Assembly (NCBI RefSeq): GCF_964204645.1
Contig: NC_134027.1
Coordinates: forward strand, 25,444,560-25,508,559
Direction: 5' to 3'
DNA: 64,000 nucleotides
DNA from: Tubulanus polymorphus
Lineage: Eukaryota; Animalia; Nemertea
Under the pieces are notes generated by a model. The model did no database searches. It was not told the DNA's origin and saw nothing but the letters and a program-made list of their open reading frames with translations. The translations under genes and the position numbers were made by a program. This document shows positions 309-55,407 of this stretch, in pieces (position 1 is the stretch's first letter; the number at the start of each line of letters is the position of its first letter).

Positions 309-2419
309 ACGTTAAGGGTGTCGTCGTTTCTAATAGAGGTCTTACACGTGACGTCATTGTTAGATTGCCAACCAATGCTGGAGATTTGCTGCTACATAAC
401 ACAAGATAATCAGGATTCAGTTCTTTTTGTGAGTTCGAACTGACCATCTAGTTGAAAGTAGTTCATTTTCAATGATTTAACTTGATTCACTTGGAACTGG
501 GACCAGACAGTCGTCCGAGATTACACACTTCGATATAATTAGTTCAGTTTCATTGAGTTAACTTAGTCAAATCTTAACTCGCACAGTAGATCTTGGGCCT
601 GAGAATTTAAAACTTCGAGACGTCCGCAACTTATTGTGTCTGACCAGCAATATCTATATGGTGTGCTGTCACGTGAAAAAAGGACCTCTAACAATGAACT
701 CTGTGATTGATAATTCAGGACTGTAAATATTTTATTCAGAACATAGTGACATTTAAATCGCCTTTAGAAAATTACACGTTGATTAAGATAAGCATGGAAC
801 TTCTCTGGGTTCGATTTTATTAAAATGACCCTTGTATGGTAATTACATGTATATTGTGTGGTAATTTTTACACCGTCAAAAATGTAGATATCTATATTAA
901 AAATGTACGCATTCACTGTTTTATTTTCATTATATCAAATGATATCTTAGTTGGTTGAAAAGATCCTTCATTTGGCTCAATAATTTATGAATGTCCTTTT
1001 ATGGCAGGAACACACGAATTCCTGGGGAATGGATGTTTTCCAACAGTGGGAAATTCCACAATAAGTCCAGAAATGTTCAGTTGTAAGTGAATATATTAAC
1101 TAACGGCATCGTCTTGCTATAATATTATATTCACTTATTTTCTGGACCTTATATCTGGTATCTATATTCCTTGCACGGGAATAGCGTATTTTTACCTCGA
1201 CCCATTATGTTTTCCATCTTCTTAAAATTGTTCGTAAAGCTACACTGTACAAAGATTTTAGTGAATAGAGTTCGAGGACTAAAGAAGTGACCGTAGACTT
1301 GGATTTTACCTTGTGTATTTCTTCATTTGATCAAGATATAAAATAATATCACTGTCTCAATGTATTATAAATAACCCTTTTATATTATCTCACGTGCTAC
1401 TCTGAAAATATGAATAAAGTTTATGTAATTGTTGTATATTATGAATGTAAGTTTTCATCGGTTTGAAAAGATGTCGTGGAGACAAATCGGACAAAATTGC
1501 TGCTCAGCCATCGCCAACAAAATCCCTTCATCCAGTCCCGAGTGACCGGTTCACGGCGCTCCGTATACCGCGTCAGGTACTATCAGCTCGCGTGAACTAC
1601 TGTTCCGACGCTGGCATGCATTGATTACAGTTTTGACTGCCAATTTAGAGAATCTAAGAAATAAGTTCCGCAACCGTTATTAGAATCAAAAATAAGGAAA
1701 CTCGCTGATTCGAATCAATTTAATTATTTATTCGCTAAGACCAACGAATCGTCTGTATAAAATGTTACAATATATATATATTATATACAAAATATCGCAA
1801 TTCACATGAAAATTCAACCATTCTTGAGCAGCAACATCTTCGAAACAATGGAATCTTGATTATGAAAAACTAATCGTTGGCTCAAATCAAAAGGAACATA
1901 CAAAACCGAATCATACAAAATAACGAAAAATTAACATACAGAAGAGGTTCATTACACGAATCTCCAACATCTCACGTGATGCTTACAGATATTCTAGAAA
2001 TGCATGCTTTTTCAAGCTGAATTTTTTCCGATGCAGTTTATAAATTCCAGCCCCGAAATTGCACATAATAAATGCTTATTACAACATATTTACAAACAGT
2101 CGTCGTGAAAGTTCGATTTAACGAATTAATCCGAACACACCGGTCACGCTGTTCTCAATGAAGAGCGATAGCTCATTTTTCAATTACCAGAAGTTAACCC
2201 TCTCAAAAATATATTCCGGAAAATGCTGTTGGATAATGGGCACACTGCTATAATGCGTCTACACTGCGGTGCAGTGCATCGTAAGTTACTAACGTATTGT
2301 CCTATGATTAACTTCAACTTTAGATAACACATCGGAACAATTTTGCCAGTCGCAGTTTTTCCGCAGGTTTACTGTACATCAGTAAAACTCTTCTCTGAAC
2401 CCTAGTTTCTATCAGTGCT

Positions 2420-5400
2420 CTACTCGTTCGTTATCTGTGGATGTTCTAGAAAATTAACGATCCGTCGTCTCAGATCCGCTTCGAGGAATCTCTGAAAATA
2501 TTCATCGCACGAGAAAATATTAGAAATTTCATTTCAAATCCACTCCAGACCCTCTTCTCTGTCTTCTCCTACCCTTCTGGTATTCAAAATAAACAATAAT
2601 AGGATAACATTAATGGTTCCTGATCACAAACTGGACACATCAAAATAAAATTCTTAAAATGTGATACAGTTGCATGATAATTGCATGATAAGTGACTAAT
2701 ATATCAAATATCATCCCTTCCCAAAGTATACCTACCCATCACGAATTTCAATGAAAAATGGCAAACCATAAGAAAGCTACAGGTTTTGGAATTCAGAAAA
2801 TGAGGCCATCTTGTGTCAGATGGACACGATTTTTTTCATGCTGATTGGCTCTTGGGGGATAGGAATATATATGAAAAATCAAAATAATTGATTGAGGCAT
2901 CTACAATATTTCCCTTGAAAGCATTAAAATGCATAAAAAGTGCTGATTTTCTGGAATATCAATGGCTCCCTGTTGGGCATTTTGATTCTGATCGGACCAG
3001 TTTTTTGGCCAAATTATGAGTCTAGGGTAGATACATATGAACCAATTATCATGACAATCCCTTGATGCGTTTTCAAAATTTCCCAAAATAACTGGAATTC
3101 ATCTATGAATGAATGAATAAATGGATGAAAAGTGAACGCAATAGCCCATAAAAATACACGAATTACGGATAACTTTCAAATAATTACTGGTTAGGGAAGT
3201 TATAGTTATGAAATTAAACACTGACCTGGGTGGGATCATCAACATTCTCTTCCGCCAGTTCACTCTCTTCACTACCGCTCGGCGGACTAACATCGAATCT
3301 GGCAGTTTCATTGCTATCAACATTGCTTTGACCGCTGCGAGAATCATCATCAGAAACCGTCGATTCCGACGAGACGTCCGCCTTGCGACACTTCGACATT
3401 TGTAATCTCACGACTTTCCGACGTTTTTTCCGTTTCGGTTTTTTCGGCGGTTTTTTCTTTGTTCTTCTCGCCACGTCGATGGCTTGCGAGAAGTCGGAGA
3501 CATCCGCGTCTTGACTGAGCGGTTGCTCCCATGTTGCCACCACTGGGCTCTGAATGGTTTGGAATTTCTCGTCGATTTCGTCACCGTCCGGTTGGGTAAG
3601 TAGAGTTTGCGATAAACTGGAGACATCAGCGTCCTGACTCAAGGGTTGCTCAGCAACAAGACTTAATGAAAAAACGCTGGATATCATCAAAGATGACTCG
3701 TTCAGCGTGTTATCGATCAGTTTGTGATGTTCCGGGGAAACATGTGGCGCAGATTTTCTTTTCAGAATACTTGTGCTATGTTCACTATTCGCGGCGCTAC
3801 TCGAGCTAAAACAGGATACGTACTCCTCCGTCGAGCTAGCAGATGGTGCTGGTTTTGAGTTAGCAGATGGCGCTGGTGTCGAGCTAGCAGACGGTACCGG
3901 TGTCAAGCCAGCAGACAGCGCTGGTGTCGGGCTAGCAGACAGCGCTTGCTTCGAGCTAGCAGACGGTGCCGGTGTCGAGCTAGCAGACAGTGCTTGTGTC
4001 AAGCCAGCAGACAGCGCTGGCGTCGAGCTAGCAGACAGCCCCGGTGTCGAGCTAGCAGATGGTGCTGGTGTTGAGCTAGCAGACAGTGCTGGTATCTGTT
4101 CTTCTGTTATTTCTGAAATTTGAGCGAGCGTATCTTGCGTCGACCGCGACGGCTGCGATTCAACAATCACTGGGTCGAGGTCGTTCGAATTTGTCTCATC
4201 CCTCGACGATGAAAACAATGGACGACTTCCGCAAGTCGAAACCGTCGTTTTCGTTACCGTTGACGACTTTGAGTTTTCGGGAGTGGTCAGTTTTTCAGTA
4301 TGTGCCGTACAGAATTCCTCCTCGTGCATTTTACTATCGCTATCAGTAGATTTTGCGATTTCCTCCAAATTTACATCTTTCGGGTCATCATTCTCCGTGC
4401 TGGTTATACTATCAACTACCAGGTCGGTTTGAGGTACAATAACTATAGGAACTTTACCGCTAATATTATCGCTTTTCGAGGCGGTGTATTTCTTTTCAGT
4501 CGGCGACGTCTTCCAGATTTTATTCTTCAGCGTTTCTAACCCGTGACCGACGCGACTCAAAAAACTCAAATTGCCGACCGATTCCACCACGGATTCTTCA
4601 ATTTCGTTGGCGCTTTCAGCTTCGTCCTCGGTTATCAACGAATCGATTGAGATATTCATTGCGTCTTGCTGTCCACAGTTTTCATCAGGACTTGATTGAG
4701 TTAAATCCTCAGTCATAATACTAAAAGGCTGGGTTTCTGTGGTCACAGCACTAGATGGTCGAGTTTCTTCAGTCATGATGCTAGAAGGCAGGGACTCCTC
4801 CGTCACAGCGCTAGACCGTTGAGTTTCCTCAGTTACAATGCTAGACGCCTGAGACTCCTCAGTCATAATACTAAAAGGCTGAGTTTGCTCAGTCATAATG
4901 CTAGAAGGCAGGGACTCCTCAGTCACAACGCTAGAAGGCTGAGTTTGCTCAGTCATGATGCTAGAAGGCAGGGACTCTTCAGTCACAACCCTAGAAGGCT
5001 GAGTTTCCTCAGTCATAATGCTAGAAGGCAGGGACTCTTCAGTCAAAACCCTAGAAGGCTGAGTTTCCTCAGTCCTGACACTAGAGGACTGGGTTTTCTC
5101 AGTTATAATGCTAAACAGCTGGGTTCCTTCAGTTGGTGTCTGGGAATCTTCAGAAACCAGATTTTCTGATAACCCACTTCCTCTTCCACTGGTCTGCTGC
5201 TGCAGCTGCTGCGGTTGTAAATCATCCTTATTTCGATCTGAAATTTGTTTCGACGAATTTCCCGAATTTTCATCCACAGCAGACGGATATTGATCATCAC
5301 GAATCGGCGACGTCTGCTGAGCGCTTACCGCTGAAGAATAATGATCGCTTTCGATTGTTCGTTGTTGTTGCGCGATATCGTCCATCGATTGCGACCTAGT

Positions 5401-8400
5401 CAACGTCTGATTCTGTGAACCGGTATTCTCCGGTGAATCGTTCGATGAATCGGTTCTCGAATGACTACACGTGCTACTCTGACGACTCAATCGCCGCCTT
5501 TTCGGACTGTTTTCTTCGACGCATTCGAGCACAGTTTTATAGTTGAATAGTTTACGCTTTCGTTTCGCCTGACCCGGCGACGGAGTCGGCGTCCGACAAG
5601 TAGCGAACAGAGCGTCCGGTGTGGGCACTTTTACCGATCCCGGAGTAGAACGCAATCGAGCTCGTTCCGGAGAAACTAATCCATCAAACTGAGTTTCAAT
5701 CTCCATTTGTTCGCCCCTCAATTCCATTTGACCAGTGCTCGATTGTGCTTCTCCAGCACTAGATTGCACTTGACCAATGCTCGATTCCAATTTACCACTC
5801 TTTGACTCCGTTTGGCCCCTGATCGATTTCATTTCACCACTGCTTGTTTGAGTTTGACCACTGCTCAATTCAGTGTGCCCGCTCCTCGATTCAGTTTGAC
5901 CACTCCTTGATTCAGTTTGACCACTCCTTGATTCAGTTTGACCACTCCTTGATTCATTTTGACCACTGCTCGATTCAGTTTGACCACTCCTCGATTCAGT
6001 TTGACCACTCCTCGATTCAGTGTGACCACTGCTTGATTCAGTTTGACCACTGCTTGATTCAGTTTGACCACTGCTCGATTCAGTGTGACAACCCCTCGCC
6101 TGACTACGTAATACACGAGTGGTCTGTTCAGGTAAATGACTTAATTTCCTATTCTTACTCAAAGGGGTCGATTTAGAACATTTATTCGTCGTAGGTTTAT
6201 TATCGGTTCTCTTTCGGAATTCATCCACTGCTCCTAATTTGCGTATATCCCACAGTTTTACAGATAACGACCGGTTATTCAATGTTTGTGCATCGTAGAT
6301 CGACTTGCCCTCTTTCTGTTTCGATAGTTCGTTCAAACGTTGTAATTCGGATTCGCCGTTTTCGTGAGGTAAACTCGCGAGGTTTTTCAGTCGACGTTCT
6401 TCGACGCTGTTTTCGACGCGATTTATTTGCGAAAATTCCATCGCGAATTTCGTCGGAACGCTAGCGCCGTCTATCTGCGTTGAATGGAACACGGCATGGT
6501 TATCCTGACTGAAAACTGGACCGTTATCCTGACTGAACATCGGGCCGTTATCCTGCGCGATGACTTGACTCGCGGGTAGCACGTCCGAGGGTGTACAGCA
6601 CGTCAGGTCCAACGACACGTTCTGCGCGTTGTTGTTGTTAAGATTTGGTGGTTTCTAAGAGGAAAAGAAAACAATAATCAACATATTCAGAATCATAGGA
6701 AACTGAGTGCAAGAATTGAGTGTCTTACTATGAAAGGTTGAAATGCTAGTTAATCTGGTTTAAAATGTTAGAGGTCAGTTGATTTAAAGTTTAAGTTAAC
6801 CTGTGGATAACTAGTGCAGTGATAATTACAGCATTCTTCGCATATTTCTCTAATATTTTACTTTGACCAACCTTCGAGCGACTGCCCCTATTGAAAATTG
6901 CCATTTTTGAATTGCATTTTCTAAAATAAGACAGAGCCGAAGTTAGTGCCTTACCGCTGTTGGTGGTGGCAATGTTTTTGATGAAGATTTCTTGAATTGT
7001 CCAGATTTCTTCAATGGCAACTTCCCCTTGGTGCTGGTGCTTGGAGCAGCAGGAGCATCAGCAGCAGCTGCATCTGAATAACCATTTGCTGGAATTAGAT
7101 AGCTAACTTAATAATTTGAAAAGTTTTACCAAACCCAAACAACTGTTTACTGGGTCCAGAATCAAATTAAACCTGCACAACTGTGGAACAGTAACCAGAG
7201 TGAGTTCTGGTTTCACTCTAATTTTCCAAACTAAATCCTTCTCCGGCGAATGATACCTTCGCATCAACAAATAGGTTTTCATAACCAGTAATAGAATTCA
7301 AGTCAATTCAAGTAACAGCCTGCAATACGCACCTGTTTCTGCGCGTTTCGTCGAATCAATTTCGAGTTCCGGAAATTTCTTCGACAATATTTGTTTCGCC
7401 TGCTCTACAGCGTGTTTCCCCCTTCTTTTTATTTCCTGGATGATCACCTCGATCGGAATGTCCTTCTTACTCTTTTCGACCCAACGATTGACGTTGCTCT
7501 GAAAGAACAAAAAAAAAAACAAATCAGTTTTCAAATTTGGAAGAGCCGTATAAACCTGGTGTTGATTGAATAAACGTAAGGACTAATAGTGTATTGAAGG
7601 TAAACTTGGTTTATTTGAAGTAAAAGCTTTTGCTATTAGAGAGTATAGTAGGCTCAGATGAGCTACAATACCTATAAGTCAGGAAAGCTTGTACTTCGAA
7701 ATAAATCTATTTACCCTTCAACAGGGCGGCCACTTTTGCTTCCTTTTGACTTGCTTTTACCCTGCCTATTCCCTGACATGTACCAGTGCGTTGATTCCTT
7801 CGCTCGATCTGCTAAGAATCTGATCAATTAACACAGTCAAATAGGCCTACGTAAGACCTAAATAGAAACTGTTTGATTTTAAGTTCGATCTAGCAATCTC
7901 AACGAATTTTCCTGATTTTCAGCTTTTTTACTAAATTCCCTGACTTTTTTTTAAAGAAAAGAAAATTCGCTGAAGTACTATCTGTAACTAACTAGTAATA
8001 ATAGAATAGTGAGTGCGCACACGTACCGGGTTTTTTTGTTCGGGCCAGAATAATTCGATCCAAACTTGTTCTTCTTTCGAGCGTAGTTCGCGCGGTCGCC
8101 CGCTGACGTTCAGACACATGTTCCAGTAGGCGTCGTACTCGTCGAACTGACCGTTATAACCGGTGAACGCTCGACTACCGCGCGTTCTCTTCAACATGTC
8201 CGACATCCGATACGCTTCGTCGCACAGCCGTCGTTTCTCTTCGTAACTCATCGGAACATTCGAGTTCTCATAATCATTGTTATCATTACCGGTATTGGTT
8301 GGAACGCCATGACCAACGCTTCTATCCTAAAATAGATCAAATACATGTATGCAAACAGTTTCTAACAAACTTAGATTTTCTCCATTCAATTTCTAATGTC

Positions 8401-10681
8401 CTAATTTAACAATAGAAATTTTAAAATTCTGGTAACTAATTTTCACTTAAAGCAGGGTTCCTACAAATCAGGGAATCCCTCAACTCTGATTGAATTGTAA
8501 GATATGCTCAGTGGAGGAGGGGGGGCTGTTTTTTCTCAAGCAGTTTCTTGTGCCACTTGTCACCAACAAAAACAACTGGACACTGAAAAATTCAAATTCC
8601 CAGACTAATTCTGGATTTTCAAGACAGGTCAAAATTTCCGGAATCGTCCTGCAGGGACAAATATATCCAGAATGCCCTGATTTTCCCTGATCTGTAAGAA
8701 ACCTGTTAAAACTTTGTTATACGTGATAGTTGAATTAACCCAGTTCAAGTTAAAACTTGTCCATCACGTTCTCCTAATTACCTGTTCTGCAATTTTAAAC
8801 GTGACCCTCTGCTGCTGGTTTGAATTCGTAGATACAAATAGCGTCGGCTGCCGTGATTGTTGACAAGCAGACGTCTGCTGTGGTGGTTGCAAAGGTTGAC
8901 AGGCAGACGTCGGCTGCGGTTGTTGTGAAGGTTGACATGCAGACGTCGGCTGCGGTTGTTGTGAAGGTTGACATGCAGACATCGGCTGTGGTTGTTGTGA
9001 AGGTTGACATGCAGGCGTCTGCTGCGGTTGTTGTGAAGGTTGACAAGCAGACGTCCGCTGCGGTTGTTGTGAAGGTTGCGGGAGTTGATTTTCCGTCAGT
9101 TCGTTCAAAGCGTTTAACATCGTTTGTGACGTAGCAGTCGATCCGTCGTCGTCTGCGTAGAGTTTGTGTAAATTCTGGAAATCTTTCGGCTCAAAACGAT
9201 TGTCAATCCTGAATAAAAATATAGTACGATCTCCCAGATCTACAACGTACGTAATAAAGGAATGACGCATTGATTTTTACCCCTTTCACACAGTTGGACT
9301 AATTTATAAGGGTACTCGAAAGTGATGGATATAATTTGAAAATTTATAAAGATGTAGAATGGGCCCAGTATGTAGAATAATAGAAATACCGCTATAGTGC
9401 ATCTACACCGCAGTGCGGTGTATTGTTAGTAACTAATATTACACTATGTTTGACAGGTGCTGCCATCTTTCATGAGACAAAAACTAATTACTGATAACAT
9501 CAGATGCACTGTGATGCCGTGTACTAGCAAAGTCCAACACCAACTAATACTCCGCACTGCGGTGAAAACGCACTGAGATGGCCTCATAAGTGAATCATTG
9601 ATTAGCATCTCAATTAATCATTTAAATTGCGACATAAACCTTCACCCCAAGAACTCATAACTTACTCAATTAAATCGTCATCATCCCAGTGATTTAATCC
9701 ATATTTTAACAATGTGTAACTCTTGATTAGGAAACATATGCGTTTTTTCCCCTGAAAACAGATCAATATACATCAGTATTTAGGCATCAATAAACCGCCA
9801 CCGCTGACTAACGCATGGTTTTTTCAGAGAATGGAACATCTGTAGTATGCAGCACCAATGTTAAAAAGATGTATTCTGGGGTCACAGCAATTGGAATAGG
9901 GTCTGATTTTAATGATATGATGTATAAATTGAGGGGAACTTACAAAGTTTTCTTTCACTTGTAAGCGGTAGTCTTGTATTTTGACGAGAGCTCCTTCTGG
10001 TGCCGAGCATAACGTGTCATTAAATCCCCTGAAAATAATTCAACAATTTCATGTGCATTTCCGCGACTGTATTTCACTCCCAGTAACTTTGATAAGTAAT
10101 TCTTACTGTGAATCAGGTTCGCACGCTAGGACTGCCTGAATAGCACAAACTCCATCGCTAATCCATAATACATCATCACCCAATTCAGTTCTACCGCTGC
10201 CCTGCAATTACAGAAAATCATCTTGATATAGGGGCTTAATGTTGAAAACAAGATCATATGAATAGAATACTAACATATGATCATACAAGCATTTTGGCCC
10301 GGCCAAATTCATATCCACATTTCAAATTAATTCAAAAATTCCACCCCAGTGTGATATGTAAAGAAAAGATAACTGATGTAAAATTGCGGATGCGGATCCC
10401 AAATCAATGACCCCCTGAAGATATTTCCGACTGTCTCTTACCGTCGTAAAATGACAGATATGCGGTTTTAGTAACGGTTTGTGTTTAGTGAAACCATCGA
10501 TGAATTCAGTAACCGCCGTCAGATACCCGAGAATCCACGGCTCTTTCACCGGTAATCCCGTTGTTATTCCGTACGTTTTCGGCGCCACCGCATCAACTAC
10601 TGATTCCAGATTCAACACCGAGGACTGCCGGAGTGGGGAATCGCTCCGCTGCGACTCCAGTGGCTGGTCGGAATGCTCCAT
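2420..10681 (-). CDS. Putative shelterin TPP1/ACD (Est3/Tpz1-like) homolog, ~1670 aa, 10 exons
   Basis: Phase-consistent GT-AG exons: 10681-10442, 10201-10107, 10028-9944, 9751-9666, 9208-8782, 8326-8027, 7498-7333, 7073-6955, 6654-3226, 2491-2420. The N-terminus has EPWI...LWISDGVCAIQAVL...EGALVKIQDY...ICFLIKSYTLL, matching TPP1 OB-fold motifs (RPWI...LLVSDGTHSVRCLV...EGRLLLLQD...FYLQVDRFSLL). The last exon encodes RFLEADLRRRIVNFLEHPQITNE*. Minus-strand AATAAA at ~1727. Without the last splice the CDS would stop at 3214. Confidence 0.7.
3830..4095 (-). repeat. Coding 24-bp tandem repeat (SASSTPAP/L octapeptide)
   Basis: GTCGAGCTAGCAGA-containing units recur every 24 nt and translate as SASSTPAx. 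Confidence 0.9.
4700..5115 (-). repeat. Coding 30-bp tandem repeat (TEE(S/T)xPSxxx decapeptide)
   Basis: AGTCA...CTAGAAGGC units recur every 30 nt. Confidence 0.9.
5840..6090 (-). repeat. Coding 21-bp tandem repeat (TES(S/R)SGQ heptapeptide)
   Basis: GATTCAGTTTGACCACT(C/G)CT units recur every 21 nt. Confidence 0.9.
8453..8705. mobile_element. Non-autonomous DNA element (MITE, CAGGG-ended, hAT-like)
   Basis: Imperfect TIRs CAGGGTTCCTACA ... TGTAAGAAACCTG in an intron. A related end (CAAGGTTCCTACA) lies at ~45241. No clear TSD. Confidence 0.5.
8855..9080 (-). repeat. Coding 36-bp tandem repeat (ACQPSQQPQPTS)
   Basis: About six copies of a GGTTGTTGTGAAGGTTGACA... unit within exon 5 of the TPP1-like gene. 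Confidence 0.9.
9277..9580. mobile_element. Degenerate copy of the TTAA/piggyBac-like MITE family
   Basis: Shares CTACACCGCAGTGCGGTGTA and TGTTTGACAGGTGCTGCCAT with the intact copy at 28030-28303, in inverted orientation. Confidence 0.65.
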
Positions 10682-12004
10682 CGACGCGAGGTTGTTGCTC
10701 CGGGGAAAACGAAATTGAAACGACGTGAGCAAAAGGGGGGTCAGTTATCAGTCGCGATCAGTATCGAGTCTTCATTCTTTAACTTTTGATTTAAGATTTG
10801 GACTACCCCGGTACGTCATCTGTCAACGTAAATAGTAGGTCGAGGTCGAGGACGACAGTAAGTCGTAAAAAAATGTCAGCAACCAAGTCCAAGAGAATAA
10901 TGTTTTTAAGCTGTTTACGGGCTTCAATTCAAACTAAGACAAATAAACAAGATTATTCTTGACATCCTGGAAACGTTCGCTGCAATGTGATTCAGCATCG
11001 AGTGATGACACACCCGACCGATCTAGTAGTAGAGAGAATTTTTATCCCTTTCTTTCTAAAATTCAAAACCATGGACGCCGCCATTTTTGTTCGCGATGAT
11101 GATGACGACGGTTCGAATCCCAATTTGATGATTTATTTTAAGATGCGAAAATGCAATTATCATTAAACGTAAGCTTATGTATTTATATGATAATTAGTAT
11201 AATCGCACATATGCCGGTGGCCTGTACTTAAATCAAGGATTTGAGCCCAGATTATTCAAACCGGGCATTCATTCATTGCATTCAATGCGTATCAGACATT
11301 CTCTGTGGGGCTAGCGAGGGAAGGCTCCGGATTGCTTCGCGGGCTTGTTTTGAATCTGAATAATACGTGTCTATATCACACTGTGGCATATTGCCTTGGA
11401 AAATGAGGGAAGTAGCTCCCAAATATCCACAGTGCACCCTCGGTGCATGTAGCAATCATAAACAGTTCTGCAATCTATTTGAAAAAGGCTCGGCAACGTG
11501 AGGAATAAATGAGTTCAAAATGTGTTGCTTTTTCTCTTTGGCACGGCGACCACGCCGGGAAAAGCCCAGATCCCGTACAGGATACGAAGCTCGTAACAGG
11601 GCGTTCAGTTAGAAGTTGAAAACGTATTAGAACAGTAAGTCGTTGATTCCAGCCACATCACTCGTTGTCCGGCGATTGAACTCTCCCAAAATTGAAAAAA
11701 GAGGATTTATTTCCCTTGCGAAGAAACAGTTCAATAATCCGCCGGTTTACGACGATCATACGTCTATCTTCTACGTTGCTAGCGAACACAGATATTGAAC
11801 ACGGTCATTATTATACGAACTGGACAATAACAAAGAGATACCGGCGGAAATCAATTGTTCGATATTCATTAGATATGCGCTCAATCGAATAAACAAGGAA
11901 TGACGTATTATTAATAGGTGAGGTGATACTGAATAACAAAGTCATATCGCGCAAGACGCTCATCCGCCGAATTCATTAGTTCCAGCACGACCGGAGTCAT
12001 CGAG

Positions 12005-14868
12005 ATGAACATCGCCGTTGTCGAAGAAATATTCAATTCAGCCAATCTGGCCGGGTTGGACCTCGTCGCTCAGCAGTTAGCCGAGGATAGGGGTTATTTA
12101 GAGCAGTCACACGGCTCATCTCAATCATTATCAGGTATAGTTGTAATTTTTGACGTCGAAATACTAGATTTTCTCGACTGAATATAGGGTTGGAAAATGA
12201 ACAAGTCGTGTCGTCGGTCGCCTAAAAGCTTTCGGGATACCCACTAGGCTCGCATTGTTAAATTTTGATTCCCTCCGTGTATTTTTCCAATTTAATCTTT
12301 TATTTCGTTTACCTTGATTGGATGACGAAGGAAAAACGTCATAACTTACGGAGCCCCGCGTATAGGTGACATGGTGAAAAATAAACAGTACCGGTAATAT
12401 TAGTTTCTCACCGTGTCACCTGCGGGGCCCCGTAATGGTTAGAAAGTGATAGTTTTGTAAGTTCATTATCATTTGTGAACACCTTTTCAACTATAAACAT
12501 AAGTTTAAAACCCGCTATATAAACATTTTAAGAGATTAAAAACGAATTATATGTATCGAGAATTGAAAATAAAACGACGTTTTGAATTCTCACAAAATAG
12601 CAGTCTGTATGTATTGCGGGTTTTAAACTTATGATCTGTTCAGTCCACGCCAGAGTGTACGGGCAATATAAAACAACGTAGTTATATGATCTTTCGACAG
12701 GAATGGACCGCACTCATCAAAGATACCTGTTGGGATGTTTATACTACGCCGTTTTGAAGAATGACGTCTTGTTATCTCGTCAACTAATGGTCCACGGAGT
12801 CGACATCACTCAGACTTTGTATCAGGGCTGCCGAGACGTGCTGTTCTACGCCGTCGAGAAGAACAACCCGGCGTTAGTTTCCATGTTCGTCAAAGTGGGC
12901 GGCGATTCGTTAGGTTTAAAGGGAACGAAAGGAATAAGTCTTTTAGCCACGGGTATGAGAGCGTGCAATCTACAGATTCTGAAAATACTCATCGAAAGCG
13001 GTTGTCGCAGCCCGATCGGAGTGATATTCGAACCGAAATCGAATGTGCTGGACGACGACGAACGCCAGATTCTCGAACTATTCGCGAAACACGGTATCAA
13101 ACTGAAGTTTTATCATACTCTAAAACGCGCGCAGGCCAGAGGCAATTTCGAAACGGTTTCGATCTTATTAGATCAAGAATCTCAATACGAAACCAAGTCG
13201 AAACAGTTGATCGATAACGATCTCACCAGGGAGATGACGAGTTCGGGAAACTTCGATATTTTTCGAGCGTTGTACGAAAGCGAATTGATCCGACCTCTTT
13301 TGAATACTAACGTCGTTTTCGCGGCCGCTTACAACTCCGGCCATTCTCACATAGCCAAATACATCTACGATCAGGGAGAGAGGTGGGACATCGTGTCGGA
13401 ATATCACCAAGCGTGTTTCATGGGGCACATCGATACCGTACAAGAACTTATGAACGACGACGTCGAGCTAAACGCGCTTCTCGATGTCGACCAACTCTTG
13501 CACTTCGCGGCCAAAGGCGGACACGCCGACGTTTGTCAACTTCTTCATCGAAACTCTTTCGATATCAATCACATCGTTGCTAAGATGTCGTGCGAGTACA
13601 CGTACCAGTGCACGCCGCTGCACATAGCCACGAAATACGGTCACAAACATGTGGTGGGGAAACTTCTCGAGTTGAACGCCGATGTGAACCTGATGACAAC
13701 CGAGGGTCGCGGCTACACGCCTTTACATTACGCGTGCCGAAACGGATATCCGGAAATAGTGAAGATGTTACTAGAAGCTGGTAGTACAGTAGAAGCCGAA
13801 TCGCTCGTTACTCCGCTCATTAAAGCCTGTCAATCACCCGTCGACTGTCCTCAAATTATAGAACAGTTGATCGAATACGGGACGGACGTGAATGAATCGG
13901 ACGGCTCGACGTCACCGCTGATGGTTTGTTGCGCGCACGGGAAACCGAAATCGCTGCGAGTTCTACTAGACCACGGGGCCAGCGTCACTAAAGACGCGCT
14001 TCGTCCGCACAGTATGTCATCGGAAGAGTTACGCTGGCCTCTCGCCTGTCTGGCCAGTAGATGGACGAAAAAAGATCCGGAAACTCAGATACAGATGGCG
14101 GAGATGATATTCGCGACTGTGACATCAGTAGACGTGAAAAATCAATTCGTAGCAGCTTTAAACCATACGATCGTAGATTCTAATTTACCCCTATTCGAAT
14201 ACCTGATGGACAAAGCGCCGGTTCATGCCATCGCTGAGGATTGGATCCGCAAGGACTGCCCCCTATTGTCGCACGGAAACACCGATCCCATACATAAAAC
14301 CGTTAGCGAGACGCACACGTTGCTGGTGATGTGGGAACGGTTGATCGATGTGGCCAATAGGTGTCGCTTTACGTCCCCGGGCCTTTTAGCATTCGTATAC
14401 CACAGGGCGATGTCTCGTATGAACTACTGGTACACGATCAACCCGTTTATGATAACGTACATGCTTCAAGCCATGCACGGTCGCGTTCAATTTCTCGAGA
14501 AAGAATTCATTATCAATTTACTCGGAGTTGCAGATTTAGACAATTTGAAGCTCATTCTAAAGTGTGGTTATATGGCACAGGACGATATGGGTCGATTTCA
14601 TACAATATTTTCTACGATTTCTAATTATATCTCGCTGAATTTTTGCGTTCAAATCGAATCGTCCGTATTCCCGCCTTCAATGCCGTATCTAGCCGCTGTC
14701 AAGAAGTATATTTTGAACCCGCTCACTTTGCAAGAACTGAGTCGAGCATTCTTGCGGCGGTTCCTCGGAAACAATGCTTTATCAATCAGTGATTCAGCGC
14801 ATCATCTCATGTTACCAAAATACACGCGTCAGTTCCTGACATTTGAAGGCGCCTGTCGGATTGAATAG
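12005..14868 (+). CDS. Ankyrin repeat and SOCS-box protein (ASB-like Elongin BC-Cullin5 substrate adaptor)
   Basis: Exon 12005-12134 splices in frame to 12701-14868. Ankyrin repeats include TPLHIATKYGH, TPLHYACRNGY and SPLMVCCAHGK. C-terminal SOCS box: PLTLQELSRAFLRRFLG...LMLPKYTRQFL. Confidence 0.85.
12346..12435. mobile_element. Short hairpin MITE
   Basis: TTACGGAGCCCCGC..AGGTGACATGGTGA / TCACCGTGTCACCTGCGGGGCCCCGTAA inverted termini in the ASB intron. Confidence 0.6.
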
Positions 14869-15132: not shown

Positions 15133-16257
15133 TTAATATTTCAGACGAGTCAAACATTTGATGACAATTTGTTTAGCGGCGAGTCTGAATTTATCATTAG
15201 TAAAACAATAAACTACAAAGTTTAAACACGAATCGACGACCGTCAGAGCAATGGCTATTTTTCGGTATATAAGTGATGATTCACGAAAACTCAAACCTGG
15301 AAAATGAAAACGGATGAGCGGAAATAGGGAGTAGGTAATTCTTTCCAATGTAATCAACGATTCACAAGTAACGTAAACAGCGATTACAGCAAACGTCATT
15401 CGTAAAACTCTCATTTCTACATTTCTACTGCTGCTGGTGGTAGCGCCGCTCTTATTCAATTCCTTACCTATTGAAATCCTATTAACTGTCAAACTGATAA
15501 TCAAAATAAGATTTATAACAATCAGTAAAAACATCGGAACAACCATACTCGATATTGTACCATCCCAATCAGTCGAATGATATTCCCATTTATGTAACAG
15601 CTCTTTTATGGTTGTGGAGAAGCGATAAGGCAAGCCTGGACCCCGTGCTAGCGTTACCCCAGGATCCCCATCGACACAAGCTATCAATCGAAGCTTACGC
15701 TTGGGCAAAAACAACGGGAAAAAGCAAAGAAAACCATAAATCGTGATAAGAAATATGAGAAAATTCATTACTTTCCGAGTCCAGAACAATCGCGATTTTA
15801 GCGGGAAAAGTGTTATGATAAGTCTTTCTAAACCAATAAGGATAACGCACCAGTTTCGAATTTGCTGAAACATGTAAAACGGTCCTAAACTCACTTGTAT
15901 AAATTCCCAACCGTAATTCCAGTCATCTCTATAGAATACGACATTACCTAAATGTATATAGATGTGAATAACTCGTAGAGGGTACATGATGAAAACACTT
16001 ATCGAGTAAGATAAATCGTAGATAACTAAAACTTCGATCAAATAATAAACTTCATTTTTCATCCTCTTCAATACGATAATTGTGAAAATGTTTAAAGCGA
16101 TGCCGAGTATCGTGACGGGTCCGTAGCAGAAAATATACATGTAAACACTAAATTTCAGTTCCCAGCGGTATGGTTTAGTATTCAATACTCGTTCACACCA
16201 TCCAGACCAGGTTTTTACAGTCGGTTCTAAAGTCGTTGAAATGTTTTTTGCATCCAT
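15133..16257 (-). CDS. Intronless class A (rhodopsin-like) GPCR, FMRFamide/myosuppressin-receptor-like or chemoreceptor-like, copy 1
   Basis: 374 aa with seven hydrophobic segments. Motifs: TM1 GIALN, TM3 end LERL, FPLK in ICL2, TM7 DSCLNFVVY and helix 8 NDKFR. Confidence 0.9.
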   Translation of the reverse strand: MDAKNISTTLEPTVKTWSGWCERVLNTKPYRWELKFSVYMYIFCYGPVTILGIALNIFTIIVLKRMKNEVYYLIEVLVIYDLSYSISVFIMYPLRVIHIYIHLGNVVFYRDDWNYGWEFIQVSLGPFYMFQQIRNWCVILIGLERLIITLFPLKSRLFWTRKVMNFLIFLITIYGFLCFFPLFLPKRKLRLIACVDGDPGVTLARGPGLPYRFSTTIKELLHKWEYHSTDWDGTISSMVVPMFLLIVINLILIISLTVNRISIGKELNKSGATTSSSRNVEMRVLRMTFAVIAVYVTCESLITLERITYSLFPLIRFHFPGLSFRESSLIYRKIAIALTVVDSCLNFVVYCFTNDKFRLAAKQIVIKCLTRLKY

Positions 16258-17131
16258 ATTTTATTGTCTGATGATCGAAACCTTCCTCGAGTCTAGTGAC
16301 GTTTGTTTCAGACGCGCGTGTGTTCAGTAACCTGCTCAGACAGCAGCATCAGACTGTGTCCTCTCAGCTCTGATGATCCCTCACCGTGTGTGATGACGTC
16401 TTCAATGTTCTACGTCCCCGATTTGAAAAAGATATATTTCACATATGTCTAAATTATAGCCTCACAGTTAATGCACACGATTCTAGTTGAGCAGATCCAG
16501 AGTAGTAATCACAGTAGAAATCTGAAATGTTTGATGAATTTTCACGATACAATATCTGATAGTAATCTAACCGCGCGGCTCAAACAACAGAAAGAAAACT
16601 ATTTTATCAATACATCGATTATAAAACGTATTCGTGATCAGTTCTCAAATCAGCCCATACAACCTTCAATATTAGACCCTTCTTTTAAATACATATGTAT
16701 TGTGTCTTTTTTCACAAAATCTCAATTTCTTTTGCTCTCCGGCAAATGAATATGTGTCAGAAACTATGAAATTAGTATATACTGCCGTAATTTCAGTTTC
16801 TGACTATATACTGCGCCAACATCGGTGAAGAATGATTTTGGCGATATAAAGAGAATGGTGGTATTACGGGGGTGTTTTACTATGTATTTGTATAAAGACG
16901 TACATTGAGATAACCAGGCGGTAGGCTGGGTGGCGGTAAATGGGAGGGCGGTATATCGGGGATTCAGTGTACATGTAAAGCCTAACTCTCATCTCGTTAC
17001 ATTCAGCGTCATAAAATGCGATTTCTTTGAGCGAAAACGGACGAATAACTTGGATCTTGTTACTTGTTGACCAGACTTCGAACAGATTTTTAGCGGTGGT
17101 TGAACTGCGATGAAGTTTCGGACGTTTTTGT

Positions 17132-18277
17132 TTAGACGAATTTAGAGTTTAGACGTTTCAGACGAATCAAAGATTTGATGACAATTTGTTTAGCGATGAG
17201 TCTGAATTTATCATTAGTAAAACAATAAACTACGAAGTTTAAACACGAATCGACGACCGTCAAAGCAATGGCTATTTTTCGGTATGCAAATGATGATTGG
17301 TGAAAGTCCAAACCTGGAAAATGAAACCTGATGAATGGAAAACTGTAGTGAATTTTTTCGATTGTAATTAACGATTCACAAGTAACGTAAACAGCGATTA
17401 CAGCAAACGTCATTCGTAAAACTCTCATTTCTACATTTCTACTGCTGCTGGTGGTGGCGGCGCTCTTATTCAATTCCTTACCGCTTGATATTCTAGAAAT
17501 TATCAAACTGATAATCAAAATCAGGTTTATAACAATCAGTGAAAACATAGGTACAACTATACTGGATAGTGTACCTTTCCAAACAGTCGAATGCAGCTCC
17601 TCCCAGCCATAGAATAGTCTTTTTACGGTTAATATGGAGTAGCGATAAGAAAGGCGTGGACCTTCTGCTAGTGTTACCCCAGGATCTCCATCGATACAAG
17701 CGACTGGCCGGAGCTTATGTTTGGGCAAAAACAATGGGAAAAAGCAAAGAAAACCATAAATTGTGATAAGAAATATGAAAAAATTTACCACTTTCCGAGA
17801 CCAGAACATTCGTGATTTTAACGGGAAAAGTATAATGACAAGTCTTTCTAAACTTACTAGAATGACGCCCCAGTTTCGAATTTGTTGAAACATGTAATAT
17901 GGTCCTACAGCCACTTGTATAAATTCCTTACCTACATTCCAGTCATCGACATGGAATAGAACTTTACCTAAATGTATATAGAGGTGAATAACTCGTAGAG
18001 GGTACATGATGAATACACTTATCGAGTAAGATAAATCATAAATAGCTAAAACTTTGATCAAATAATAAACTTCCTTTTTCATCCTCTTCAATACGATAAT
18101 TGTGAAAACGTTTAAAGCGATGCCGAGTATCGTGACGGGTCCGTAACAGAATATATACATGTAAACACTAAATTTCAGTTCCCAGCGGTATGGTTTAGTA
18201 TTCAATACTCGTTCACACCATCCAGACCAGGTTTTTACAGTCGGTTCTAAAGTCGTTGAAATATTGTTTGCATCCAT
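17132..18277 (-). CDS. Intronless class A GPCR, tandem paralog copy 2
   Basis: 381 aa, with N-terminus and TM6-7 nearly identical to copy 1. About 500 bp of upstream DNA is also duplicated (16257-16720 vs 18277-18805). Confidence 0.9.
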   Translation of the reverse strand: MDANNISTTLEPTVKTWSGWCERVLNTKPYRWELKFSVYMYIFCYGPVTILGIALNVFTIIVLKRMKKEVYYLIKVLAIYDLSYSISVFIMYPLRVIHLYIHLGKVLFHVDDWNVGKEFIQVAVGPYYMFQQIRNWGVILVSLERLVIILFPLKSRMFWSRKVVNFFIFLITIYGFLCFFPLFLPKHKLRPVACIDGDPGVTLAEGPRLSYRYSILTVKRLFYGWEELHSTVWKGTLSSIVVPMFSLIVINLILIISLIISRISSGKELNKSAATTSSSRNVEMRVLRMTFAVIAVYVTCESLITIEKIHYSFPFIRFHFPGLDFHQSSFAYRKIAIALTVVDSCLNFVVYCFTNDKFRLIAKQIVIKSLIRLKRLNSKFV

Positions 18278-19599
18278 ATATTTTATCGTCTGATGATCGA
18301 AACGTTTCTCGAGTCAGAAACGTTCGTTTCAGACGAGAGCGTGTTCAGTCTCAGCTGCGTCAGACAGAATAGATCCCTCTCAGCTCTGATGATCCCTCAC
18401 CGTATGTGATGACGTCTTTAATGTTCTATGTCTCCGATTTAAAAAGAATATATTTCGCATATGTTTGAATTATAGCCTTACAGTTGACACGCGATTTTAG
18501 AATAGCAGATCCAGAGTCTCTACGTTGTAATCACAGTTTGACACACCCGATTCTAGTTTAGCGGATCCGGAGTCCTATATCTGCATAGTTATATATGTGG
18601 AATGCTCGATGAATTTTCACGATTCAATATCTGATAGCAATCTAACCGCTCGTCTCAAACAGCAGTTAGAAAACTACATGTATTTTCTTACGGAACTAGT
18701 CTATCGATTAAAAACTTATTTGTGATTTAGTTTTTAAAATCAGCCGAAACTATTCAATTTAAGACCTTAAACCCATCTCATACATATTGTGTCCATTTTC
18801 ACAATTTCAACGAGTACACATCCTATCAGCTGTAGACGCGCTCGTCGCTGCAACTGGCAAAAAACCAGTCACAGTTGTAGTTGCAGTTATAAGGGCGAGA
18901 ACCTGTGCCCTTTATTGAATCAAGAACTATAATTTTTGATTGAAATCATTGTTTCTGTCAGAACCTTTACAACTTTGGAAAGTAAGGATTTCCGCTTTAC
19001 CAGCGATCAAAGCTTCGCGATTTGTTGAAATGTTGATTTTGTGTTGGTGTTTTTTTTGTTATTTCAATAAAAAAAAATCATTGTGAGATTTAAAAATTGC
19101 TTTTTTTCGTTAGGATTTGGGAAAAGATTCAGTAAAATCGATCGAACATCGCGCGTTATTTTTTTTAAGGAAAAATGTATTGATCGTTCAATTGTTTGAA
19201 TATGAGTTTTTCTTCAACATGTCGGCGATTTTGACATAAAAGACGAACCGCAGATTTGATGACAAGTGTAGTGGAGGAACTTTTTCCTGTGTAATCAAAT
19301 AACGATTTACAAATAATGTAAACAGCGATTCAGTGAAAAAACTTCATTCGTAAAACTCTCATTTTTGCATTTCTACTGCTGGTGGTGGTGCTATTATTCA
19401 ATTCCTTACCTCTTGATATTCCTTACCTCTAAAAATTATCAAACTGATAATCAAAATGAAATTCATCAAAACACCAGTGAAAACCTGGGTACAACTACAA
19501 TATTGTCGAAATGACGCTCGCCAGGGATATAATTGTGTATGATATAAATTTGTATTCCAGTGCACACCCGACCGACGATGCGTTTTTACAGTCTGAGAT

Positions 19600-23400: not shown

Positions 23401-25511
23401 GGTCACTCCCTACTTTAGGATAAAGATAAACTCTTTGAGAGTTTTTGAAATATGGGAAATGTAAAGCTGGGGAAAATAACGTTTCTTCTTGCGTTTGGAC
23501 AATAGACGGACAGAACTCTTGCTCGTACTGGCAGACAGACAGACAGAACTCTTGCTCATACTGGTAGACAGACAGATGGACAGACAGGACTCATGTTTGC
23601 ATTGACAGACAGATGGACAGGACTCATCCTCATACTGGTAGACAGACAGATGGACAGACAGGACTCATGTTTGCATTGACAGACAGATGGACAGGACTCA
23701 TCCTCATACTGGTAGACAGACAGATGGACAGACAGGACTCATGTTTGCATTGACAGACAGATGGACAGGACTCATCCTCATACTGGTAGATAGACAGATG
23801 GACAGACAGAACTCTTGCTCATACTGGTAGACAGACAGATGGACAGACAGGACTCATGTTTGCATTGACAGACAGATGGACAGGATTCATCCTGATACTG
23901 GTAGATAGACAGATGGACAGACAGAACTCTTGCTCATACGGGTAGACAGACAGATGGACAGGTAGGACTCATGTTTGCATTGACAGACAGATGGACAGGA
24001 CTCATGTTCTCGCAGACGGATACTCTATATATTCACTGTACATACAGCTGATCACTGATCGATTGTTATTCTTGTTCCTCGTTAAAATTCCAAGAATTTT
24101 CAACGTGTTGACGTTTGTTTGAAACCGATTCAGTTTTACATTGTGGTATATGAGGGCGAGGGCGCGTTCCGCTGCACAGCAGGACACTCACTCATTCACT
24201 AGTGGCAGTGACTCCTTCATCAAACATTTCAATTTACTCCTATTATGATAAGTGCAGTGATTAATAATGTGGTTACTAGAAATATCAAAAATTGGCGGAA
24301 TCCGGAATGTTGTTAGTTTTGACATGAGAAATAATAGAATTATGAGTGAAAATGTTTTAGATTTGAATGGAAGAATTAAAGTAGCCTAACCATATTATAG
24401 AGTCCAATTATCCACCACACCTGAATGTTGTAATCATTCCATCAAAACAAGGGATGGATTTAGGGTCTTATTCAGGGAGGGGCGCACCCCAAAATAAGGC
24501 GCGTCATATAATCAAAAGGGCACCCCGAAAGAAAGCTCATCGGAAAACATTTTTTTTTTTGGAAATACAGAGCAAGCTTATGAATTAAAGCTTTTTTAGG
24601 TATTGGTTCGATATTTTTCATTTTCCCAAAATGGGTTACTTGAAATTAGGGGTAGTGTGCACCCCTGCACCTTCTCTTGGATTTACCCCCTGAAAGATTT
24701 TCACCGTTTCTAATTGTTCTATATTTCAGGAGAAAGTTACGGTGAACTGAACGGATACGGCTTTTACAACGTGCGAAAACGCAACCCGATAATCAGCAAG
24801 TTGATCTCATCGTCGGGCGACGTGCGGCCGGCGCGACCGATCGCGATCAGTCTGCCCGAGGACTTCCGTCGCGTGTCGGCGATCATCGACGTCGACGTCG
24901 TGCCCGAGACGTGTCGCCGCGTGCGACTGATGAAAAACGGCTCCGATAAACCGCTCGGGTTCTACATCCGCGACGGCACGAGCGTCCGCGTCACCGAGGA
25001 CGGACTCGAGAAGGTCGCCGGTATATTCATATCGCGGCTCGTGCCCGGCGGACTCGCCGAGAGCACCGGCCTGATCGCCGTCAACGACGAGGTCCTCGAG
25101 GTCAACGGTATCGAGGTCGCCGGGAAAACCCTCGATCAGGTCACCGATATGATGGTCGCGAACAGCGCGAATTTGATCATCACCGTTAAACCGATGAACC
25201 AACGGAACACGCTCGCCGGTCCGCATCGTCGCGCCGCGCAAAATAGACAATCGACGATCTCGCAATTGTCGTCGAATTCGCAACAATCGAAACAATCGCT
25301 GGACAGCGATGAGATAAACGACTACACAGAACAGCCGCAGCAGCAGCAGCAGCGGGCGGAAAATACTGATGGCGGAGAAGATGAAGTAGATGATACTACA
25401 GCTGCTGCTGTTGCTGCTGTTACCGTATCGACGGATAAAGCGAATGATGATGCGAATGATGATAATGTTGAAGATGAAGGTGATAAGGATAGTGCGGTAG
25501 TGACGTTATAA
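20467..25511 (+). CDS. par-6: Partitioning defective 6 (PB1, semi-CRIB, PDZ)
   Basis: Exons 20467-20571, 21034-21256 and 24730-25511. Motifs: [68 protein letters not shown], and a C-terminal VVTL. Confidence 0.97.
21340..22400. repeat. Satellite-like array of ~70-80-bp units with pol III B-box-like motif, in par-6 intron 2
   Basis: Recurrent ACACATCCTCCCTCAGCAG(G/A)GATTC(G/A)AAC and CTGATGACATCTTGAGACT...ACAAACCC, with alternating A/B unit variants. Confidence 0.85.
23503..24008. repeat. GACA/GATG-rich compound minisatellite
   Basis: Repeated GACAGACAGATGGACAG...GACTCAT units. Confidence 0.9.
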
Positions 25512-48117: not shown

Positions 48118-48872
48118 TTTGTTCCTATATTACATATCCGACCTTCTGACGTCATCCACTCAATCGGGTTCGAAACCCAGCTACGTGGGACTTATGCAAT
48201 TTATGTGATTAATTCTAAATAAATGTAACTCAGATAAAATTTGATACAAGCTTGTACGGGTAGTAAAATTTGATATCAACATAAATAATGATAAATAATT
48301 TTTGATATTTGTTTGACATCAAGATGAGAAAATTCACTCAAAATAGCTTGAGGGCTTTCACGTAAACTCTACCAAAACCATTTCTTTACACGATTATCTT
48401 TTTTTATGCTAAAATATATTATGGATCGCATGTAGCATTTAAAAGACCAATAAATACTATTGAATTTGAATTTGTTCCTCTGATTTTGTCGCTTCGACAT
48501 CCTCCAAAATCTGACAATCTGAAAACCGAGAAGAAAGCTATTTCCAATCGCCTCTAAATTATCCGTTTGTTTAAGGTGACTTAGTTTATTGCCGAATTAT
48601 CGTAGATTTATTTATTTCTCAACGGAATGAAACAAAATTTTGTCGTTAAAGTTTATTTTCCCGTCTAAAAAGACATTTATTTCTAGAAATTTTGTTCTTA
48701 AAAAAGTGGTCAATGTTGAAGAAGTGTAATCAATTAAATATCAATTTATTTCAGGAAAATCTATATTTGGCATTTGAGCACCGGAATCGTGAGAGAAAGG
48801 TTGATGAGTTAAAACCGGTTTTCCCAGTTCTCACAACTGATATCTTTCATTCAGATTTTGGACCGTTTAACC

Positions 48873-51800: not shown

Positions 51801-51994
51801 AGTTACTGCAATTAGGGAATACCCCGCAACAGCAGCCGGACCGCGCTGCGTCCGCCGCCCAGACGAAGAGTCCGCGCAAGAAAAAGTCGAAACCGGCGAC
51901 GACGATTAAAAAGACGGAAGATTTCACCGATTGGAATCGGTTTCTGCAGGTGACAGACGACGGAACTATGGTTACTATGGTTACAATGGAATAA
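48873..51994 (+). CDS. BTB/POZ and multiple C2H2 zinc-finger transcription factor (ZBTB-like)
   Basis: Exons 48873-51080 and 51542-51994. BTB motifs FNEMRLNGKFCDIEL...PAHRAFVAAS...IVDFIYTG are followed by many CxxC...HxxxH fingers, including the linker NERPHVC. Confidence 0.92.
51223..51361. mobile_element. MITE of the GGGCCAGTTGCACA-TIR family
   Basis: Shares AAGACCAGTCTAAGACCAACTTAG with 63510-63614; termini degenerate. Confidence 0.65.
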
Positions 51995-55178: not shown

Positions 55179-55407
55179 GTGGTCAAACCAGGTGGTTGGT
55201 TAAGTAGAGTAGGCTAATAATAGGCTATATGCCCATCCAATTATAAAAGCTTACCACTAACGATTAGTAACTTGGTTAACTTTGGCCCAACACCTTTGCC
55301 CAGTGACGTGACATTACAGATATTATATAATGACTTCAGTGCAGTAAATATGTGACCAGACAGTGCAATGATTAATTTGATGTATTATTTGTTTAGGGTT
55401 ATTTAGA

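What the first reader, a model, noticed from the sequence alone, without database searches (positions are those of the whole stretch)
9666..10681. Hidden Est3/TPP1-type telomeric OB fold spread over four small exons
Seen: four phase-consistent exons, three of them absent from the ORF track, translate to ...VKEPWILGYL...LWISDGVCAIQAVL...EGALVKIQDYRLQV...ICFLIKSYTLL. Known: the human TPP1/ACD OB fold has the ordered motifs RPWI, LLVSDG, EGRLLLLQD and FYLQVDRFSLL, and TPP1 diverges so fast that invertebrate orthologs are often missed. Inference: the apparently featureless 1134-aa ORF is the tail of an invertebrate telomerase-recruiting shelterin subunit.
Basis: partly seen in the sequence, partly recalled or inferred. 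Interest (0 to 1): 0.85.

Follow-up and report, generated by a model that had tools for sequence, protein, structure and literature searches.

The report
Ribbon worm TPP1-like telomere protein
A spliced ribbon-worm gene listed as 'uncharacterized' likely encodes this animal's TPP1, the chromosome-end adaptor already known from molluscs, corals and starfish, here with an unusually long, likely floppy linker, while any role in recruiting telomerase is untested.

Summary
The four exons are real. They are the first four of a ten-exon minus-strand gene (10681 to 2420) already in RefSeq as an uncharacterized 1677-aa Tubulanus polymorphus protein. Contigs of one RNA-like run cross 6 of 9 introns; exon 1-2, 5-6 and 9-10 joints were not listed. 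Residues 40-210 return TPP1/Est3/TEBP-beta clusters first in a language-model search (0.93, 0.93, 0.92), with the RPA70 N-terminal domain close behind (0.90). Pfam, PDB-sequence and OB-domain homolog searches found no relative. No structure model was obtained, so the fold is untested by structure. The layout (OB-like head, helical block, Ser/Thr-rich linker, short end segment) matches TPP1. Best reading, about 0.75: the nemertean TPP1/ACD ortholog. Invertebrate TPP1s are known (14 of 43 in PMC8653790's list, none nemertean). Unusual: a linker of about 1190 aa against a published 50-700, and an extra helical block. 'Telomerase-recruiting' is not supported: that paper calls it open outside mammals. 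The scan noted a similar candidate in a diatom. New member of a known kind.

The parts
10682..11093 (-). likely 5' untranslated leader
   Evidence: X3 contigs cover 10441-10913 and 10922-11093; contigs cannot show the start site
10442..10681 (-). exon 1, residues 1-80: about 40 polar residues, then the start of the OB-like domain (P48-W49-I50)
   Evidence: X3 contig record 5 stops matching at 10441 with 6 letters left over
10107..10201 (-). exon 2, residues 81-112, holds D96 (by motif order the counterpart of human D148 in loop L23; inferred)
   Evidence: joint to exon 3 in X3, 51 letters on the short side
9944..10028 (-). exon 3, residues 112-140
   Evidence: joints on both sides in X3
9666..9751 (-). 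exon 4, residues 141-169
   Evidence: joints in X3 with 22 and 25 letters on the short side
8782..9208 (-). exon 5, residues 169-311: end of the OB-like region, then a Gln/Pro-rich 12-residue repeat (36 nt x 6.1 copies, 8859-9078)
   Evidence: joint to exon 6 not seen or 13
8027..8326 (-). exon 6, residues 312-411: hydrophobic, helix-prone block; candidate POT1-binding (recruitment) domain, inferred
   Evidence: joint to exon 7 in X3, 84 letters on the short side
7333..7498 (-). exon 7, residues 412-467: further amphipathic block of unknown role
   Evidence: no atlas hit for residues 330-468
6955..7088 (-). exon 8, residues 467-511, start of the linker
   Evidence: record 18
3226..6654 (-). 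exon 9, residues 512-1654: the large ORF; Ser/Thr/Glu/Gln-rich linker with four tandem arrays
   Evidence: X3 contigs records 17 and 18
2420..2491 (-). exon 10, residues 1655-1677 and stop: short end segment, candidate TIN2-binding motif (weak, inferred)
   Evidence: X3 record 17 stops matching at 3226 with 334 letters going on, and this exon lay outside the laid stretch

Best explanation
The gene likely encodes the ribbon worm's TPP1/ACD, a shelterin adaptor predicted to have an N-terminal OB fold, a likely POT1-binding block and a long, likely disordered linker. Shown: the ten-exon model exists in RefSeq, part of it is spliced in an RNA-like run, and the composition is ordered head, polar linker. 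Predicted: residues 40-210 are an OB fold of the TPP1/Est3/TEBP-beta group. Inferred from human TPP1: residues ~340-410 would bind POT1 on the single-stranded telomere end; the ~1190-residue linker would act as a flexible tether; the last ~23 residues might bind TIN2 and so tie POT1 to the TRF protein on double-stranded repeats. The OB surface may contact telomerase, but through residues unlike the human TEL patch; this step has no support from my calls.
For: Language-model search of residues 40-210: ranks 1-3 are TPP1/TEBP-beta clusters (0.93, 0.93, 0.92; PF10341 on 60%, 21% and 24% of members, PF07404 on 28%, 34% and 92%), a mostly chordate PF10341 cluster comes at rank 14 (0.85), and 10 of the 10 best family-bearing hits share a family or clan. 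The four motifs are in order, each once in the protein. Order-promoting residues make up 0.35-0.42 of 40-residue windows starting at 21-141 and 0.30-0.35 at 341-421, against 0.00-0.33 in windows starting at 461-1621; the linker is 18% Ser. PMC8653790 describes TPP1 as OB fold, adjacent recruitment domain, variable linker, C-terminal TIN2 site. In exon 6 the window of highest helical moment in the protein (343-356, rank 1 of 1664) precedes W379, with V399 twenty residues on; human TPP1 has helix H1 (266-278), W293 and L313 (PMC5394241). That spacing match is by eye. Pfam finds none of the extra OB domains that RPA1 or POT1 would carry.
Against: No Pfam hit to PF10341 even at E up to 10, on single exons, the whole protein or the domain. 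phmmer found only the protein itself among 1.84 billion representatives, no TPP1 or Est3 chain in the PDB, and 0 of 240 and 0 of 109 candidates passed E 10. The RPA70 N-terminal family scores 0.90 with 186 shared features, close to the top hits; shuffled proteins reach 0.9 in 4-10 of 100 cases, and the calibration was not measured for parts of proteins. Residues 330-468 give no atlas hit. The end segment has no Trp, whereas human W527 contacts TIN2 (PMC8262337); its helical moment ranks 90 of 1664. The linker is well beyond the published 50-700 aa. No contig joined exon 5 to exon 6.
Confidence: 0.75

Rival explanations
1. The head is an OB fold of the RPA70 N-terminal type, a protein-docking domain, on a large disordered DNA-repair or replication scaffold that is not part of shelterin.
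For: A Rep-A_N cluster scores 0.90 with 186 shared features, nine hits with that family set. An earlier scan note on a diatom candidate reports the same near-tie (unchecked). The linker has 30 Ser/Thr-Gln sites and basic clusters.
Against: TPP1/TEBP-beta clusters rank higher. The protein has no Pfam match to any RPA1 domain. The Ser/Thr-Gln count is near the 22.9 expected from composition. I know of no animal protein with a lone RPA70N domain and such a tail (own knowledge, not searched).
Confidence: 0.12
2. It is a TPP1-derived paralog that has drifted and does another or a germline-restricted job, while a more typical ACD gene elsewhere in the genome serves shelterin.
For: Extreme divergence: no relative found at any threshold tried, although PMC8653790 found other invertebrate TPP1s by BLASTp and PSI-BLAST. 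Length is far outside the published range.
Against: No second copy is known to me; the genome was not available to search. The candidate POT1-binding block seems kept (by eye).
Confidence: 0.07
3. The domain is some other beta-rich fold and the resemblance is chance, or the OB-encoding exons and the large exon belong to two adjacent genes fused by the annotation.
For: All alignment-based tests are blank. The exon 5-6 joint was not seen.
Against: All ten best family-bearing atlas hits share a family or clan. Exon 5 ends in a GT donor without a stop, in phase with exon 6, and RefSeq joins them.
Confidence: 0.06

Closest known systems
Metazoan TPP1/ACD (Pfam PF10341; invertebrate orthologs listed in PMC8653790, e.g. 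Lottia, Crassostrea, Mytilus, Acanthaster, Nematostella, Trichoplax)
   Same: Predicted N-terminal OB domain of this group, motif order, hydrophobic block after it, long Ser-rich linker, short end segment.
   Different: Below Pfam detection; 1677 aa with a linker of about 1190 aa against 50-700; a Gln/Pro repeat between OB domain and the candidate POT1-binding block; an extra amphipathic block at 412-467; no Trp in the end segment; the acidic TEL-patch cluster is not evident.
Budding-yeast Est3 and ciliate TEBP-beta (PF07404)
   Same: Top-ranked atlas clusters; same OB group (PMC7338525 passages).
   Different: The matching clusters are of 204-235 aa proteins; this protein is eight times longer and has the animal TPP1 layout.
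RPA70 N-terminal domain (PF04057)
   Same: Related OB fold; atlas score 0.90.
   Different: No Pfam match to RPA1's DNA-binding domains anywhere in the protein; ranks below the TPP1 group.

Membership tests
TPP1/ACD | Match to Pfam PF10341 at the curated cut-off | tested here: not met
   No hit at E up to 10 on exons, whole protein or domain; HMMER filters drop most matches above about 0.1. PF10341 is also carried by only 55-60% of members of the two TPP1 atlas clusters richest in it, so a miss is common in the family.
TPP1/ACD | N-terminal OB fold of the TPP1/Est3/TEBP-beta group, by language-model features | tested here: met
   Ranks 1-3 of 30 hits, 0.92-0.93, 189-195 shared features; one source, with RPA70N at 0.90
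TPP1/ACD | OB fold by structure model and fold comparison with human TPP1 and Est3 | not tested
TPP1/ACD | Sequence similarity to known TPP1 orthologs (reciprocal hit) | tested here: not met
   Single-sequence searches only: self alone; none. Searches covered only proteins of 30-921 aa that share short words.
TPP1/ACD | POT1-binding recruitment domain after the OB fold (helix, conserved Trp, hydrophobic strand) | tested here: inconclusive
   Amphipathic window 343-356, W379, V399 fit the human H1/W293/L313 spacing by eye; no atlas or homolog hit
TPP1/ACD | Long Ser-rich, low-complexity linker of variable length | tested here: met
   Residues 468-1654: 18.4% Ser, 9.4% Thr, 0.3% Trp; not specific to TPP1
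TPP1/ACD | C-terminal TIN2-binding helix | tested here: inconclusive
   A separate last exon gives 23 residues with spaced hydrophobic residues but no Trp; moment rank 90 of 1664. PMC8653790 found the motif absent from most invertebrates.
TPP1/ACD | TEL patch and NOB residues that bind TERT in mammals | tested here: inconclusive
No alignment to a fetched human sequence was made. These residues are not conserved outside mammals.
TPP1/ACD | Binds POT1 and TIN2 and localizes to telomeres | not testable with these tools
   Needs the partner sequences of this species and bench work; genome not held
RPA1 (RPA70) | Three further DNA-binding OB folds after the N-terminal domain | tested here: not met
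   No Pfam match in the whole protein; remainder mostly polar and repetitive

The most novel reading that the evidence does not exclude
This is the most extended TPP1 on record, a 1677-residue shelterin adaptor from a phylum not yet sampled, with a ~1190-residue tether and a new helical module (412-467) beside the POT1-binding block. The module stands in for the missing TEL patch or TIN2 motif, giving spiralians a different way to link POT1 to telomerase or to the shelterin core. It would also mean that the TPP1s missing from the published list for brachiopod and annelid are similar, too-divergent proteins.
Probability: 0.15. Interest if true: 0.55.

Novelty: new member of a known kind. Interest (0 to 1): 0.3.

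Why it matters
It would give a name to an uncharacterized RefSeq gene and add a nemertean to the known metazoan TPP1 set. The TPP1 list of PMC8653790 has 14 invertebrates among 43 entries, with five molluscs as its only spiralians; Lingula and Capitella appear there for POT1 but not for TPP1. A divergent seed like this could help find those. It stretches the known linker range from 700 to about 1190 residues. [quoted passage not shown] It does not change the picture of shelterin.

Tried and rejected
Pfam on single exons, the whole protein and the two ordered regions: no relevant family; only FAD_syn (E 0.2-0.49) and LbR_Ice_bind (E 2.7) on linker repeats, far below cut-off. PDB sequence search: 1 match at E 6.3, kinesin, chance. 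phmmer against 1.84 billion representatives: self only. Word-indexed homolog searches: 1 of 535 candidates (the RefSeq protein itself), 0 of 240, 0 of 109; proteins of 922 aa or more were not searched for the two ordered regions in that database. Atlas search of residues 330-468: no usable hit. Whole-genome search: no genome held. A 36-nt exon that I first placed at 7819-7784 was dropped: X3 joins 8027 to 7498 directly and RefSeq lacks it. No listed run is on record as RNA; I read X3 as RNA because its contigs skip GT-AG introns, while X1, X2 and X4 run through them. Run X5 gave nothing laid, which proves nothing. Natural differences in the large exon: 8 synonymous of 20 listed, against 22.7% expected, p = 0.06; the table was cut (40 of 140 rows shown, none for exons 1-7), so constraint on the OB exons was not measured. 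Ser/Thr-Gln enrichment in the linker: 30 against 22.9 expected, not notable. Literature searches for a nemertean shelterin or TPP1 found none: 19 papers name the species, 15 listed, none on telomeres by title; 0; 0; 6, none on nemerteans by title; the library lacks most subscription papers. Earlier scan notes for this genome or this sequence: none.

Full report
Observation. The minus strand of 10681-9666 holds four exons: 10681-10442, 10201-10107, 10028-9944 and 9751-9666. They have GT donors and, for exons 2-4, AG acceptors, and their phases chain without a stop. Only exon 1 falls in an ORF of 120 aa or more. Reading on, I found further in-phase exons at 9208-8782, 8326-8027, 7498-7333 and 7088-6955 before the large ORF at 6654. 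A search with the start of the large ORF returned 1 protein among 535 candidates, at 100% identity: a 1677-aa RefSeq protein, 'uncharacterized protein LOC141902243 [Tubulanus polymorphus]', a cluster of one. It begins at the ATG at 10681, holds all four exons, and matches my model except for the last 3 residues, where it splices from 3226 to a tenth exon at 2491-2420. So the exons are real and already annotated; what is missing is a name.

Splicing. No listed run is on record as RNA. Of four runs laid, X1, X2 and X4 have contigs that run through introns; X3 has contigs that skip them. In X3 the joints exon 2-3, 3-4, 4-5 and 6-7 are listed with GT-AG ends (short sides 51, 22, 25 and 84 letters), and one contig spans exons 7, 8 and 9 (record 18). 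That is 6 of 9 introns, 4 of them with 31 or more letters on both sides. For exon 1-2, a contig stops matching at 10441 with 6 letters over. For exon 9-10, a contig stops matching at 3226 with 334 letters over, and exon 10 lay outside the laid stretch. Exon 5-6 was not seen. This is one run of one study, and the RefSeq model may rest on the same data. The link from the OB-encoding exons to the large exon therefore rests on phase and on RefSeq at one joint.

What the N-terminal domain is. Alignment-based tests are blank. Pfam gives no TPP1 hit at E up to 10. The PDB sequence search gives one chance match. phmmer over 1.84 billion representatives finds only the protein itself. Word-indexed searches pass 0 of 240 and 0 of 109 candidates. 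The language-model search is positive: for residues 40-210, ranks 1-3 of 30 are an Est3/TPP1 cluster (0.93, 195 of 256 features), a TEBP-beta/TPP1 cluster (0.93, 190) and a TEBP-beta cluster (0.92, 189). The RPA70 N-terminal cluster is rank 5 (0.90, 186) and a mostly chordate TPP1 cluster rank 14 (0.85). By the tool's calibration 9 in 10 true family hits share 170 or more features against 1-2 in 10 chance hits, but shuffled proteins reach 0.9 in 4-10 of 100 cases and parts of proteins were not calibrated. D96 would be the counterpart of human D148 in loop L23, a loop described as highly conserved with Est3 (PMC5137443, passages). No structure model was obtained, so OB fold and TPP1-versus-RPA70N remain untested by structure.

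The rest of the protein. After the domain come a Gln/Pro-rich 12-residue repeat, a second ordered region at about 340-465, and a linker of 1187 residues that is 18% Ser and carries four tandem arrays. In the second region the most amphipathic 14-residue window of the protein (343-356) precedes W379 and V399. Human TPP1 binds POT1 with helix H1 (266-278), W293 and a segment that includes L313 (PMC5394241, passages). The spacing fits by eye; no tool confirmed it. Residues 412-467 form a further amphipathic block with no match. The last exon gives 23 residues with spaced hydrophobic positions but no Trp, whereas human W527 contacts TIN2 (PMC8262337, passages); its helical moment ranks only 90 of 1664.

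How it most likely works. Shown: gene structure, partial splicing, composition. Predicted: a TPP1-group OB fold. Inferred from human TPP1: the second region grips POT1 on the single-stranded telomere overhang, the linker is a flexible tether, and the end segment may hold TIN2 and so the TRF protein. I put 0.75 on this being the species' TPP1/ACD. Rivals: an RPA70N-type docking domain on a non-telomeric scaffold (0.12), a drifted TPP1 paralog (0.07), a chance resemblance or fused gene model (0.06). Telomerase recruitment is the weakest step.

Comparison with what is known. From PMC8653790 I read the outline, passages, sections 5, 10 and 15, and part 2 of 3 of supplement file 2; its alignment figures are pictures that I could not see, and they bear on how divergent invertebrate TPP1s are. 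It reports the TPP1 OB fold as highly conserved in all metazoans, linkers of 50-700 aa, the TIN2 motif absent from most invertebrates, and the TERT-binding residues not conserved outside mammals. Its TPP1 list has 43 entries, 14 of them invertebrates, none nemertean, annelid or brachiopod. From PMC7338525 I saw passages only. Searches for a nemertean TPP1 or shelterin paper found none. It works like TPP1 by layout; formal membership fails on Pfam and on single-sequence similarity, passes on language-model features, and is open on structure and binding. An earlier scan note (e1-7547639) describes a diatom candidate with the same near-tie to RPA70N; I did not check it.

Verdict. A sharp reading by eye that probably names an uncharacterized gene correctly, but a new member of a known family, with an unusually long linker and one unexplained helical block. 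Interest 0.3.

Noticed in passing
window 9396-9574: Intron 4 holds an element with 29-nt inverted arms, 86% complementary, 121 nt apart; summed contig depth there is about 39000 in run X1 against 25-35 on single-copy exons. Likely a high-copy miniature inverted-repeat transposable element.
   Followed up: partly
window 12682-14868 (+): Long single ORF with seven ankyrin-repeat matches and a weak C-terminal SOCS box (E 0.0027, below cut-off): an ASB-like gene pointing away from the TPP1-like gene.
   Followed up: partly
window 11084-10992 (-): A short upstream ORF of about 30 codons lies in the likely 5' leader, starting in a sequence that resembles a YY1/initiator motif (motif name recalled).
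   Followed up: no
window 15133-16260 and 17132-18313 (-): Two tandem long ORFs with rhodopsin-family receptor matches (7tm_1, E 1.6e-4 and 2.9e-7), likely a local duplication.
   Followed up: no
window 24714-25511 (+): ORF with a PDZ domain (E 2.2e-11). Human ACD neighbours the PDZ gene PARD6A (recalled); whether this is a Par-6 ortholog and so conserved synteny was not tested.
   Followed up: no
window 48813-51994 (+): BTB domain plus many C2H2 zinc fingers over two ORFs, a ZBTB-like gene.
   Followed up: no
window 55381-57216 (+): 611-aa stop-to-stop ORF with no Pfam match at E 0.01.
   Followed up: no
window 3830-6089: Three tandem arrays (24, 30/60 and 21 nt units) inside the large exon keep the reading frame; the linker seems to have grown by repeat expansion.
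   Followed up: partly
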